DNA of 64,000 nucleotides from Escherichia coli. GTDB taxonomy: Bacteria > Pseudomonadota > Gammaproteobacteria > Enterobacterales > Enterobacteriaceae. Below, piece by piece: positions 54,803 through 57,921 of the stretch (positions within the stretch are counted from its first letter, which is position 1; each line of letters opens with the position of its first letter). Made by a program: the position numbers and the translations under genes. Under the pieces are notes generated by a model, which was not told where the DNA came from, searched no databases, and saw nothing but the letters and a program-made list of their open reading frames with translations. The DNA is taken from NCBI RefSeq assembly GCF_045037415.1, contig NZ_CP173438.1, one strand, 5' to 3'.

Positions 54803-56781
<1,979 letters not shown>

Positions 56782-56783
<2 letters not shown>

Positions 56784-57921
56784 GTCAGAGCCCCTCGATC
56801 TCAATCAGTTAGCGCAAAAAATTAAACAGTGGGGGCTGGAACTGGGCTTTCAGCAGGTAGGTATTACCGATACCGATCTCAGCGAGTCCGAGCCCAAACT
56901 GCAAGCATGGCTGGACAAACAATACCACGGCGAAATGGACTGGATGGCGCGTCACGGTATGCTGCGTGCTCGTCCTCACGAATTATTGCCCGGTACGCTG
57001 CGCGTGATCAGCGTGCGGATGAATTACCTTCCTGCTAACGCCGCATTTGCCAGCACGCTGAAAAATCCCAAACTCGGCTATGTTAGCCGTTATGCGCTGG
57101 GCCGTGACTATCACAAGCTTCTGCGCAACCGACTCAAAAAGCTGGGCGAGATGATTCAGCAACATTGTGTTTCGCTGAATTTTAGACCGTTTGTCGATTC
57201 TGCGCCTATTCTCGAGCGCCCGTTAGCTGAAAAAGCAGGTCTTGGCTGGACAGGTAAGCACTCACTTATCCTCAATCGCGAGGCCGGTTCGTTCTTCTTT
57301 TTAGGCGAATTGCTGGTCGATATTCCGCTGCCCGTGGATCAACCAGTCGAGGAAGGATGCGGTAAATGCGTGGCCTGTATGACGATTTGCCCGACCGGTG
57401 CCATCGTCGAGCCATATACCGTCGATGCTCGCCGCTGTATCTCTTATCTCACCATCGAACTGGAAGGGGAGATCCCGGAAGAGTTGCGACCGTTAATGGG
57501 AAACCGTATTTACGGTTGCGATGACTGCCAGCTTATCTGCCCGTGGAATCGCTATTCGCAACTCACTACAGAAGACGATTTCAGCCCGCGTAAGCCGCTA
57601 CACGCACCGGAACTCATTGAGTTATTCGCCTGGAGTGAAGAGAAGTTTTTAAAAGTCACGGAAGGTTCGGCGATTCGCCGTATAGGTCACCTGCGTTGGC
57701 TGCGTAATATCGCCGTAGCATTAGGCAATGCCCCCTGGGATGAAACGATTTTGACAGCGCTGGAAAGTCGTAAAGGTGAGCACCCACTTCTTGATGAGCA
57801 CATAGCGTGGGCGATTGCGCAGCAAATCGAGAGACGAAATGCGTGCGTGGTCGAAGTGCAATTACCGAAAAAACAGCGTCTGGTTCGGGTGATTGAAAAA
57901 GGGTTACCGCGTGACGCCTGA
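56782..57921 (+). CDS. queG: Epoxyqueuosine reductase QueG (YjeS)
   Basis: ORF 56674..57921; internal ATG gives 379 aa [35 protein letters not shown]... with 4Fe-4S Cys clusters (CGKCVACMTICP, CDDCQLICP). Confidence 0.93.

What the first reader, a model, noticed from the sequence alone, without database searches (positions are those of the whole stretch)
56781..56784. Divergent genes nnr (yjeF) and queG (yjeS) appear to share overlapping start codons on a CATG palindrome
Taking the canonical N-termini ([10 protein letters not shown]... for Nnr on the minus strand, MSEPLDL... for QueG on the plus strand), the two ATG start codons fall on the same CATG tetranucleotide. Each promoter and ribosome-binding site must then lie inside the other gene's coding sequence. 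This is a compact arrangement implying antisense overlap of the two 5' regions, and possibly mutual transcriptional interference.
Basis: inference. Interest (0 to 1): 0.2.

Follow-up and report, generated by a model that had tools for sequence, protein, structure and literature searches.

The report
Two divergent genes sharing start codons
In E. coli the back-to-back genes nnr and queG do begin on the same four bases (CATG), so each gene's control signals sit inside the other gene; this is rare and well conserved, but it is already annotated and its overlapping transcripts are already published.

Summary
CATG at 56781-56784 holds the queG ATG (+, 56782-56784) and the nnr ATG (-, 56783-56781), a 2-bp overlap. 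The curated K-12 record and PGAP annotate it the same way.

Both starts look genuine. The junction and the Nnr N-terminus MTDH are kept in 29 other Enterobacterales, while Nnr Met6, the alternative start, is not. The nnr ATG has a good Shine-Dalgarno made of queG codons 4-5.

The control signals lie inside the partner gene and freeze its synonymous sites:
- queG extended -10 TGGTATACT = nnr codons 12-14.
- nnr -10 TAAAAT = queG codons 133-135, fixing the rare Arg codon AGA in Enterobacteriaceae.

Published 5' ends map 8 nt downstream of each -10 element, giving a ~413-nt antisense overlap (56758-57171). This overlap is already reported as in-vivo dsRNA cut by RNase III. It is also listed among 16 divergent "excludons" of E. 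coli.

Still untested are direct start-codon mapping and any regulatory effect for this pair. Interest is low to moderate.

The parts
56781..56784 (.). CATG tetranucleotide carrying both start codons (queG ATG 56782-56784 on +; nnr ATG 56783..56781 on -)
   Evidence: Sequence; K-12 and PGAP annotation; conserved in 29 other Enterobacterales loci and two more distant gammaproteobacterial MAGs
56782..57921 (+). queG CDS (tRNA epoxyqueuosine(34) reductase, 379 aa)
   Evidence: ORF; NCBIfam equivalog TIGR00276, 509.9 bits against a cutoff of 200; the PDB QueG alignment starts at residue 6
55236..56783 (-). nnr CDS (bifunctional NAD(P)HX dehydratase/epimerase, 515 aa)
   Evidence: ORF; NCBIfam equivalog NF007856 aligned from residue 1, 1020 bits against a cutoff of 703
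56791..56796 (-). nnr Shine-Dalgarno GAGGGG, the reverse complement of queG codons 4-5 (CCC CTC), 7 nt before the nnr ATG
   Evidence: Anti-SD duplex -7.2 kcal/mol, top ~6% of background. queG Leu5 is CTC in 28/28, Asp6 GAT in 29/29, Asn8 AAT in 21/21. These are the only 3 codon-invariant positions among 298 eligible codons of queG, P=8e-6
56722..56750 (+). queG promoter: weak -35 TCGGCG (56722-56727), extended -10 TG (56742-56743) and -10 TATACT (56745-56750), inside nnr codons 11-21
   Evidence: TGnTAnACT is conserved across Enterobacterales and beyond, including genera where nnr is not adjacent. nnr Ser12 AGT 29/29, Ile13 ATA 18/18, Pro14 CCA 28/28. The published dPqueG deletion covers 56722-56752
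56758..56781 (+). queG 5' UTR (~24 nt, U-rich, no Shine-Dalgarno), antisense to nnr codons 1-9
   Evidence: The right end of Conway's overlap, 4392114 (U00096.2), maps to 56758, 8 nt after the -10 element. SD energy is -2.2, equal to the background mean. The region is unstructured, z=+2.1
57179..57184 (-). nnr-operon promoter -10 TAAAAT, inside queG codons 133-135 (AAT TTT AGA)
   Evidence: GGTCTAAAATTCAG is invariant in 18 Enterobacteriaceae. queG codons 132-135 are a run of 4 invariant codons. Arg135 is the only codon-invariant Arg of 26 and uses the rare AGA. The published 5' end lies 8 nt downstream
56784..57171 (-). nnr 5' UTR (~388 nt), antisense to the first ~130 codons of queG
   Evidence: Conway promoter at 4391701 (U00096.2) maps to window 57171. 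The operon runs to 4408049
56758..57171 (.). Region transcribed on both strands (~413 nt). Published dsRNA maps to 56772-57155 (Lybecker MS-212) and 56763-57118 (p19 cluster S-361)
   Evidence: PMC7373196 Table 2 and Table S1, mapped. One sequenced 22-nt dsRNA read spans the CATG itself
56766..56768 (-).
   Evidence: Met at this position in only 9 of 30 genomes, with V/L/I/E/K/R/N elsewhere. SD energy is only -3.2 kcal/mol

Best explanation
nnr and queG are a true head-to-head overlapping gene pair. Both use the ATG on the shared CATG, so there is no intergenic DNA and each gene's expression signals are written into the other gene's coding sequence.

For nnr, transcription starts about 388 nt upstream, from a TAAAAT -10 element formed by queG codons 133-135. 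Translation uses a GAGGGG Shine-Dalgarno formed by queG codons 4-5.

For queG, transcription starts about 24 nt upstream, from an extended -10 promoter (TGGTATACT) formed by nnr codons 12-14. Translation starts from a short, U-rich, unstructured leader without a Shine-Dalgarno.

The two promoters face each other, so the mRNAs are complementary over about 413 nt. In K-12 this duplex forms in vivo and is cut by RNase III, which makes the pair a divergent excludon-type architecture.

Shown: the sequence anatomy, its conservation, the extra synonymous-site constraint, and (from the literature) the 5' ends and the dsRNA. Inferred: that the annotated ATGs are the ones used by ribosomes. Also inferred: that the CATG persists mainly because a change in its central A-T would hit both start codons at once (a frozen compaction), with only a modest dampening of expression from the antisense overlap.
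For: Annotation.

Conservation of the junction: QueG residue 1 at locus position 2501 and Nnr residue 1 at 2502 in 29 of 29 abutting Enterobacterales loci. The same CATG occurs in a Tolumonas MAG and another gammaproteobacterial MAG.

Alternative starts are excluded in many species. In-frame stops lie 2-8 codons upstream of the nnr ATG and 3-8 codons upstream of the queG ATG with no other start between them, and Met6 is not conserved.

SD energies: nnr ATG1 -7.2, Met6 -3.2, queG -2.2, background mean -2.0.

Synonymous-site freezing falls exactly on the predicted signals: queG codons 5, 6 and 8 (P=8e-6); nnr codons 4, 12 and 14 (P=1.2e-4); queG codons 132-135 with rare AGA in Enterobacteriaceae.

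The queG -10 element persists, and moves closer to consensus (TAAAAT), in Pectobacterium and Brenneria where nnr no longer abuts queG.

Published 5' ends map 8 nt downstream of each -10 hexamer. The published dPqueG deletion equals the inferred -35 to -10 interval.

dsRNA and RNase III products. ExcludonFinder list.

Both initiation regions are unusually unstructured. The 76-nt junction is identical in 4830 of 5425 E. coli genomes, and the variant checked (strain 536, the lowest-identity row returned) differs only in queG codons 7-9.
Against: I could not find direct evidence of translation initiation, whether ribosome profiling of initiating ribosomes or N-terminal peptides, for either gene.

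The queG start has no Shine-Dalgarno, so its use rests on conservation, on homology starting at residue 6, and on the lack of alternatives.

The 5' ends come from RNA-seq coverage (Conway) quoted in another paper's supplement. I did not see single-nucleotide dRNA-seq data, and I inferred that the right end of the overlap is the queG TSS.

The nnr -35 is poor, and the simple promoter scan found nothing at its threshold.

ExcludonFinder also lists yjeV-queG-nnr as a noncontiguous operon, so some nnr-strand transcription may start further upstream.

One MAG (L019) has a frameshifted junction in which nnr would start at the Met6 equivalent. The first five residues may therefore be dispensable.

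The shuffle-free codon statistics treat related genomes as independent within a column, although the comparison across columns is fair.
Confidence: 0.85

Rival explanations
1. Annotation artefact: Nnr really starts at the downstream ATG (Met6, MKKNP..., window 56768..56766). The two coding sequences would then not overlap, and MTDHT would simply be the queG 5' UTR read on the other strand.
For: The second ATG exists in E. coli and close relatives. The N-terminal ~16 residues lie outside the conserved YjeF_N domain, since TIGR00197 starts at residue 17. One MAG (L019) appears to start at the Met6 equivalent. No direct start-site data were found.
Against: Met6 is present in only 9 of 30 genomes and is replaced by non-start codons (E, K, R, N, CTG-Leu, ATT-Ile) in many. 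MTDH and its ATG are conserved across the order. A conserved SD of -7.2 kcal/mol precedes ATG1, against -3.2 for Met6. The SD's synonymous sites in queG are frozen. In 13 species an in-frame stop 2-8 codons upstream leaves ATG1 as the only start before the conserved S-[IL]-P-H motif.
Confidence: 0.06
2. Selected regulatory switch: the overlap is kept because it makes queG and the nnr-led promoter of the nnr-tsaE-amiB-mutL-miaA-hfq superoperon mutually antagonistic. The means would be RNA-polymerase collision and RNase III cleavage of the 413-nt duplex, as in a classical excludon, so that expression of one lowers the other.
For: dsRNA from this region is among the top 20 protein-coding p19 clusters in stationary phase, and it was also pulled down with anti-dsRNA antibody. 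The pair is in the E. coli excludome. As a class, excludon pairs are rarely co-expressed in single cells and show higher synteny. The tight head-to-head arrangement (-2 to ~100 nt) is widespread in Gammaproteobacteria.
Against: No reciprocal expression data exist for this pair. Conservation of the CATG is equally explained by purifying selection on two start codons. Several Enterobacterales (Pectobacterium, Brenneria, Photorhabdus, Xenorhabdus) have separated the genes and kept the queG promoter. Downstream genes of the superoperon are reported to have their own internal promoters (my own knowledge, Tsui and Winkler papers, not checked here). In PMC10950094, dPqueG had no effect on the datA RNA levels or replication-initiation timing that were measured; nnr-operon expression was not measured there.
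Confidence: 0.25
3. queG is translated from a different codon or as a leaderless mRNA, so the shared CATG is used by nnr only.
For: There is no Shine-Dalgarno before the queG ATG (-2.2 kcal/mol). In E. coli the ORF is open for 38 codons upstream and contains GTG codons.
Against: The mapped 5' end (56758) lies downstream of those GTGs and 24 nt upstream of the ATG, so the mRNA is neither leaderless nor able to use them. No ATG, GTG or TTG lies in frame between 56758 and 56782. Six species have an in-frame stop 3-8 codons upstream with no alternative start. The ATG and M-[ST]-x-P-L-D are conserved. Homology to solved QueG starts at residue 6, and the first downstream Met is far inside the conserved domain. 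SD-independent initiation at unstructured starts is established for E. coli (PMC7043885, seen), and this region is unstructured.
Confidence: 0.04

Closest known systems
Divergent excludons / 5'-overlapping divergent operons in E. coli (Conway 2014 operon map; Lybecker 2014 dsRNA; Huang 2020 p19 capture, PMC7373196; ExcludonFinder 2025, PMC12288877)
   Same: This locus is itself in those catalogues. It is p19 cluster S-361 'yjeS, yjeF, 5' overlap', Lybecker dsRNA MS-212, a Conway divergent overlap of 413 nt, and 'queG-nnr' among the 16 divergent excludons.
   Different: In most listed pairs only the 5' UTRs overlap across an intergenic region; the mean intergenic distance of excludons is 95 nt. 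Here there is no intergenic region at all, the start codons themselves overlap, and both promoters and one RBS are inside coding sequence. None of the passages I read in those papers mentions the shared start codons or the cross-species constraint.
Head-to-head (divergent) overlapping gene pairs in prokaryotes (Lillo & Krakauer 2007, PMC2174442; Huvet & Stumpf 2014, PMC4161906)
   Same: Two protein-coding genes on opposite strands whose 5' ends overlap. The class is known to be strongly under-represented because initiation signals must be embedded in coding sequence.
   Different: Many annotated divergent overlaps are suspected start-codon mispredictions. This one is backed by order-wide conservation and by signatures of the embedded signals. 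Whether it is one of the '2 divergent' E. coli pairs counted in PMC4161906 is my inference, not checked.
Extended -10 (TGn) sigma-70 promoters
   Same: TG one base upstream of a 5/6 -10 hexamer (TGGTATACT), a poor -35 (TCGGCG, 3/6), and a published 5' end 8 nt downstream.
   Different: The element is entirely inside the partner gene's codons 12-14 and doubles as the conserved S-[IL]-P motif of Nnr. Promoter activity of this exact element was not assayed in anything I read.
Listeria mogR/fli excludon (prototype)
   Same: A long antisense overlap between divergently transcribed neighbours, with RNase III processing proposed (as described in PMC12288877).
   Different: In the prototype a demonstrated regulatory outcome links functionally opposed genes. 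Here no regulatory outcome or functional opposition (Q-tRNA maturation versus NAD(P)HX repair) is known.

Membership tests
Divergent (head-to-head) overlapping protein-coding gene pair | Two CDSs on opposite strands whose 5' ends share nucleotides | tested here: met
   queG 56782-57921 (+) and nnr 55236-56783 (-) share 56782-56783
Divergent (head-to-head) overlapping protein-coding gene pair | Both annotated start codons are the ones really used (not a misprediction) | tested here: met
   Comparative evidence only: conserved ATGs and N-termini, a non-conserved alternative Met6, upstream in-frame stops, and SD at nnr ATG1. Direct initiation mapping was not found
Divergent excludon | Transcripts of neighbouring opposite-strand genes overlap at their 5' ends | not testable with these tools
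   Taken from the literature: Conway overlap 4391701-4392114 (U00096.2), which is window 56758-57171, and the ExcludonFinder list. Here I showed only that conserved -10 elements sit 8 nt upstream of both published 5' ends
Divergent excludon | The overlap forms dsRNA processed by RNase III | not testable with these tools
   Literature: p19-captured ~21-nt duplexes (cluster S-361, 5,635 RPM in stationary phase) and anti-dsRNA pull-down MS-212
Divergent excludon | Expression of one partner represses the other (mutually exclusive expression) | not tested
   No data for this pair. The class-level single-cell evidence is in PMC12288877
Extended -10 sigma-70 promoter (queG) | TGn motif immediately upstream of a -10 hexamer, TSS 6-9 nt downstream, -35 dispensable | tested here: met
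   TG 56742-56743, TATACT 56745-56750, published 5' end at 56758, -35 only 3/6. Conserved as TGnTAnACT in 30+ genomes, including ones without adjacent nnr. Activity was not assayed
Leaderless mRNA (queG) | Transcription starts at or within a few nt of the start codon | tested here: not met
   The published 5' end is 24 nt upstream of the ATG, and the conserved -10 element is 32-37 nt upstream
Nnr (bifunctional NAD(P)HX dehydratase/epimerase) | Full-length match to the curated equivalog model above its cut-off | tested here: met
   NF007856, 1020.1 bits against a cutoff of 703, residues 1-509 aligned to model positions 1-509
QueG (tRNA epoxyqueuosine(34) reductase) | Full-length match to the curated equivalog model above its cut-off | tested here: met
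   TIGR00276, 509.9 bits against a cutoff of 200; homology to solved QueG structures 5d08 and 5d6s
Known structured cis-regulatory RNA in the overlap | Match to an Rfam covariance model | tested here: not met
   No Rfam match at E<=1 in 56400-57400 on either strand

The most novel reading that the evidence does not exclude
The zero-spacer, face-to-face promoter arrangement could be an ancient, selected coupling device in Gammaproteobacteria. Antisense collision and RNase III cleavage of the ~413-nt duplex would set a reciprocal balance between QueG (the last step of queuosine-tRNA synthesis) and the upstream promoter of the nnr-tsaE-amiB-mutL-miaA-hfq superoperon, which carries t6A and i6A tRNA modification genes and Hfq. 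That would link several tRNA-modification pathways through one bidirectional switch. A minor variant is that the invariant out-of-frame ATG at 56772 opens a short upstream ORF that gates the SD-less queG start.
Probability: 0.12. Interest if true: 0.45.

Novelty: already known. Interest (0 to 1): 0.2.

Why it matters
As it stands this is a tidy textbook case, not a discovery. It is one of the very few genuine head-to-head gene overlaps in E. coli, and it shows how a promoter, an extended -10 element and a ribosome-binding site can be encoded inside a neighbour's reading frame. Each of these leaves a clear footprint: frozen synonymous sites, and retained rare codons (AGA, ATA). The practical consequences are:
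- Any deletion or recoding of the 5' end of either gene will alter the other. This includes Keio-type knock-outs, synonymous recoding projects, and the published dPqueG allele, which removes 31 nt of nnr.
- Start-codon mutations must target the two unshared bases, 56781 for nnr and 56784 for queG.
- The locus would be a convenient natural test bed for whether divergent excludons actually regulate anything.

Tried and rejected
- The generic sigma-70 and terminator consensus scan of 56300-57300 found nothing at its threshold. The promoters were found through conservation and published 5' ends instead.
- Searches for direct start-site or TSS tables were empty or not held: Thomason 2015, Conway 2014 supplements, Kim 2012 supplements, Nakahigashi 2016 TetRP supplements, TRAINSPOTTER N-terminomics supplements, the Meydan 2019 Ribo-RET text, and the Rend-seq annotation paper supplements.
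- PDB searches found no E. coli Nnr or QueG structure that could show the expressed N-terminus.
- Rfam found no structured RNA in the overlap.
- The TTG seven codons upstream of the nnr ATG (56804) was rejected as a start. It has no SD (+1.3 kcal/mol) and is absent in many species.
- A leaderless queG was rejected because of the 24-nt UTR.
- TCGACA as a -35 for the nnr promoter was rejected because it lies only 7 nt from the -10 element.
- A uORF from the ATG at 56772 was not pursued. Its sequence is fully determined by the queG and nnr coding frames, so conservation cannot test it.

Full report
OBSERVATION

The window is E. coli: 100% identical to strain SK1144 over 601 nt and 95-99% identical to most other genomes. 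Bases 56781-56784 read CATG. The + strand ATG at 56782-56784 opens a 379-aa [16 protein letters not shown]. The - strand ATG at 56783..56781 opens a 515-aa [13 protein letters not shown]. Curated NCBIfam equivalog models identify them as QueG (TIGR00276, 510 bits) and Nnr (NF007856, 1020 bits, aligned from residue 1).

The curated K-12 record has queG ending at 4394067 and nnr starting at 4394066. A PGAP-annotated genome shows the same 2-bp overlap.

A CATG by itself is meaningless: there are 210 in the window against about 249 expected. The non-trivial fact is that two divergent start codons coincide. Divergent overlaps are strongly under-represented in prokaryotes (PMC2174442). One survey found 2 divergent pairs among 663 overlapping pairs in E. 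coli (PMC4161906).

ARE BOTH START CODONS REAL?

I fetched 80 loci encoding QueG relatives, one genome per species. In 29 Enterobacterales the QueG alignment starts at locus position 2501 with residue 1 and the Nnr alignment starts at 2502 with residue 1. These run from Escherichia, Citrobacter and Enterobacter to Pantoea, Serratia, Yersinia, Rahnella, Budvicia and Edwardsiella. All have the same CATG overlap.

The Nnr N-terminus M-T-D-H is conserved. Elsewhere it is V, L, I, E, K, R or N, often a non-start codon.

In 13 species an in-frame stop lies 2-8 codons upstream of the nnr ATG with no other start codon between. In six species the same holds 3-8 codons upstream of the queG ATG.

Pairing with the 16S rRNA 3' end is -7.2 kcal/mol for the nnr ATG on the CATG, which is in the top ~6% of 2000 random positions. 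It is -3.2 for Met6 and +1.3 for an upstream TTG.

For queG, homology to solved QueG structures begins at residue 6. No in-frame ATG, GTG or TTG lies between the mapped 5' end and the ATG.

I found no direct initiation-site or N-terminal peptide data. Use of the two ATGs therefore rests on comparative inference, though that inference is strong.

WHERE ARE THE EXPRESSION SIGNALS?

With no intergenic DNA, the signals must lie inside the partner gene. They are visible as nucleotide-level conservation beyond what the proteins require.

(a) nnr Shine-Dalgarno. GAGGGG at 56796..56791 is the reverse complement of queG codons 4-5 (CCC CTC), 7 nt before the ATG. Across 30 genomes only 3 of 298 eligible degenerate codons of queG never change codon. 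They are Leu5 (CTC, 28/28, a six-fold degenerate residue), Asp6 (GAT, 29/29) and Asn8 (AAT, 21/21). All three lie in the first nine codons (hypergeometric P=8e-6).

(b) queG promoter. TGGTATACT at 56742-56750 is an extended -10 element (TGn plus TATACT). Its reverse complement is nnr codons 12-14, AGT ATA CCA. These are codon-invariant: Ser 29/29, Ile 18/18 with the rare ATA, Pro 28/28. Together with His4 (CAT, 27/27) they account for 3 of only 7 invariant codons among 321 in nnr (P=1.2e-4).
- The element persists as TGnTAAACT or TGnTAAAAT in Pectobacterium, Brenneria, Photorhabdus and Xenorhabdus, where nnr does not abut queG.
- It also persists in Alteromonadales such as Thalassotalea, Psychromonas and Bowmanella.
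- That pattern argues for a promoter function rather than a protein constraint.

(c) nnr promoter. TAAAAT at 57184..57179 (- strand) is made of queG codons 133-135, AAT TTT AGA. GGTCTAAAATTCAG is invariant in all 18 Enterobacteriaceae sampled, whereas species outside the family have CGN for this Arg. Within the family, codons 132-135 are a run of four invariant codons out of 14 invariant among 248. Arg135 is the only codon-invariant Arg of 26, and it is the rare AGA.

EXPERIMENTAL ANCHORS FROM THE LITERATURE

Huang et al. 2020 (PMC7373196) list cluster S-361, 'yjeS, yjeF, 5' overlap', among the top 20 protein-coding loci that yield RNase III-generated ~21-nt duplexes captured by p19. They flag it as also present in the Lybecker anti-dsRNA data and the Conway overlapping-operon data. 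Their Table S1 gives three sets of coordinates:
- the Conway overlap, 4391701-4392114 (413 nt), with a + strand promoter at 4391701 and a terminator at 4408049, which is the 16-kb superoperon;
- Lybecker dsRNA MS-212, 4391717-4392100;
- the p19 cluster, 4391754-4392109.

Those coordinates are in U00096.2. I used a sequenced read that spans the CATG as a check and mapped them as window = 4448872 - p. The results are:
- nnr-operon 5' end at 57171;
- queG 5' end at 56758;
- dsRNA at 56772-57155 and at 56763-57118.

Both 5' ends fall exactly 8 nt downstream of the conserved -10 hexamers inferred above. That is an independent consistency check. The window is identical to K-12 at every base of these regions.

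A datA study (PMC10950094) built a dPqueG allele. Its primer design removes window 56722-56752 (TCGGCG...TGGTATACTTA), which is the same -35 to -10 interval, inside nnr.

ExcludonFinder (PMC12288877) lists queG-nnr among the 16 divergent excludons found in at least 50% of 58 MG1655 transcriptomes. It also lists yjeV-queG as a convergent excludon and yjeV-queG-nnr as one of three noncontiguous operons.

HOW IT MOST LIKELY WORKS

- nnr is transcribed from a promoter about 400 nt inside queG. It carries a 388-nt leader antisense to the first ~130 codons of queG, and it is translated from a canonical SD-ATG.
- queG is transcribed from an extended -10 promoter inside nnr, with a 24-nt U-rich leader and no SD (-2.2 kcal/mol, the background mean).
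- Both initiation regions fold far less than shuffled controls: z=+2.1 and +2.0, with 200 and 199 of 200 shuffles folding at least as well. This fits SD-independent initiation at unstructured starts, which is established for E. coli (PMC7043885, seen).
- The promoters face each other, so polymerases converge over 413 bp and the two RNAs pair. The duplex is detected in vivo and is cut by RNase III.
- Whether this changes protein output is not known for this pair. Class-level single-cell data suggest excludon partners are rarely co-expressed.
- My preferred reading is that the CATG is a frozen compaction. A change in the shared A-T would hit both start codons, and the flanking bases are tied up by SD, promoter and coding constraints. 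The antisense overlap would then have at most a modest dampening effect.
- The ancestral state seems to be a very tight head-to-head pair. Outside Enterobacterales the gaps are about 10-100 nt. There is an independent or shared CATG overlap in a Tolumonas MAG and another MAG, and candidate 1-nt CAATG (ATG/TTG) overlaps in three Alteromonadales.
- Some Enterobacterales have secondarily separated the genes: Brenneria by 146 nt, Pectobacterium by about 1.1 kb, and Photorhabdus and Xenorhabdus with no nnr in the upstream flank. The overlap is therefore not indispensable.

WITHIN-SPECIES CONSERVATION

The 76-nt junction from promoter to SD is 100% identical in 4830 of 5425 complete E. coli genomes. 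The variant I inspected, strain 536 (the lowest-identity row returned by the search), differs only in queG codons 7-9. No Rfam family matches the overlap.

COMPARISON WITH KNOWN SYSTEMS, AND NOVELTY

The locus belongs to the catalogued class of divergent 5'-overlapping operons, or excludons. It is explicitly named in at least two of those catalogues, and its start-codon overlap is in the reference annotation.

What this analysis adds is the cross-species demonstration that both ATGs are the conserved starts. It also adds the pinpointing of the embedded SD and the two -10 elements through frozen synonymous sites and retained rare codons, and the observation that queG lacks an SD. None of this changes the category, so the finding is already known.

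A specialist would not be surprised. The locus is a neat example and a caution for anyone engineering either gene.

VERDICT

Observation confirmed. Novelty: already known. Interest 0.2.

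Noticed in passing
window ~55596-55715 (- strand; nnr codons ~357-370 and ~389-396): Two blocks inside nnr are almost invariant at the nucleotide level across 28 Enterobacterales, synonymous sites included. They are CTGAACCTGCTGGCAATCAATCCCGATAAACGTCACAATCGC and GAAATTGAAAGTGACCGCTTAC. Leu395 is always TTA, Asn358 AAC, Asp365 GAT and Asn369 AAT; these are 4 of the 7 invariant codons of nnr. They lie 330-450 nt upstream of the tsaE start, so an internal promoter or other element for tsaE-amiB-mutL is possible.
   Followed up: partly
window 56772-56774 (+ strand): An out-of-frame ATG 10 nt upstream of the queG ATG is the complement of nnr His4 CAT, which is invariant (27/27, never CAC). 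It would open a 17-codon ORF ([17 protein letters not shown]) overlapping the queG start. More generally, nnr codons 2-4 (ACG GAC CAT) are frozen at synonymous sites for no reason I could establish. Genera without adjacent nnr do not keep this sequence upstream of queG.
   Followed up: partly
window ~57904-57957 (- strand) and the region downstream of queG to ~58600: The 17-aa yjeV gene is annotated as converging on and overlapping the queG 3' end by 18 bp. It is followed by the datA (DnaA-inactivating) locus and three tRNA-Gly genes. Read-through from glyVXY across datA is reported to control IHF binding. ExcludonFinder lists yjeV-queG as a convergent excludon and yjeV-queG-nnr as a noncontiguous operon, so queG may be overlapped by antisense transcription at both ends.
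   Followed up: partly
window 55236-55264 (- strand): The nnr 3' end overlaps the tsaE 5' end by 29 bp on the same strand. This is longer than the usual 1- or 4-nt coupling overlaps.
   Followed up: no
L051 ~2477, L060 ~2480, L072 ~2480: In Bowmanella, Lacimicrobium and Neptunicella the best candidate starts give a 1-nt head-to-head overlap on CAATG (queG ATG, nnr TTG). Start assignment there is by ORF logic only.
   Followed up: partly
L028 (Brenneria) 2354-2501; L031 (Pectobacterium); L033, L036, L044 (Photorhabdus, Xenorhabdus): In these Enterobacterales nnr no longer abuts queG: the gap is 146 nt in Brenneria, about 1.1 kb in Pectobacterium, and nnr is absent from the 2.5-kb flank in the others. 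The TGnTAAAAT or TGnTAnACT element upstream of queG is nevertheless kept. In Brenneria and Pectobacterium the - strand ATG at the junction is still present, but its reading frame hits a stop within 5-15 codons (MANR*; MRNRKNAPYYLILP*).
   Followed up: partly
L019 2486-2502 (MAG CTSoil_132): A 1-nt frame difference near the junction means that nnr in this MAG aligns only from the Met6 equivalent (MKKNPASIPH...). This is either an assembly error or a natural variant showing that the first five residues are dispensable.
   Followed up: no
window 56757-56781 (+) / nnr codons 5-11: The variable part of the Nnr N-terminus is Lys/Asn/Glu/Arg-rich in all genera (KKNP, EKQY, KKQI, EKRNE). This makes the queG leader on the other strand pyrimidine- and U-rich everywhere. 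Composition rather than sequence seems conserved, which could reflect selection on the queG leader.
   Followed up: no
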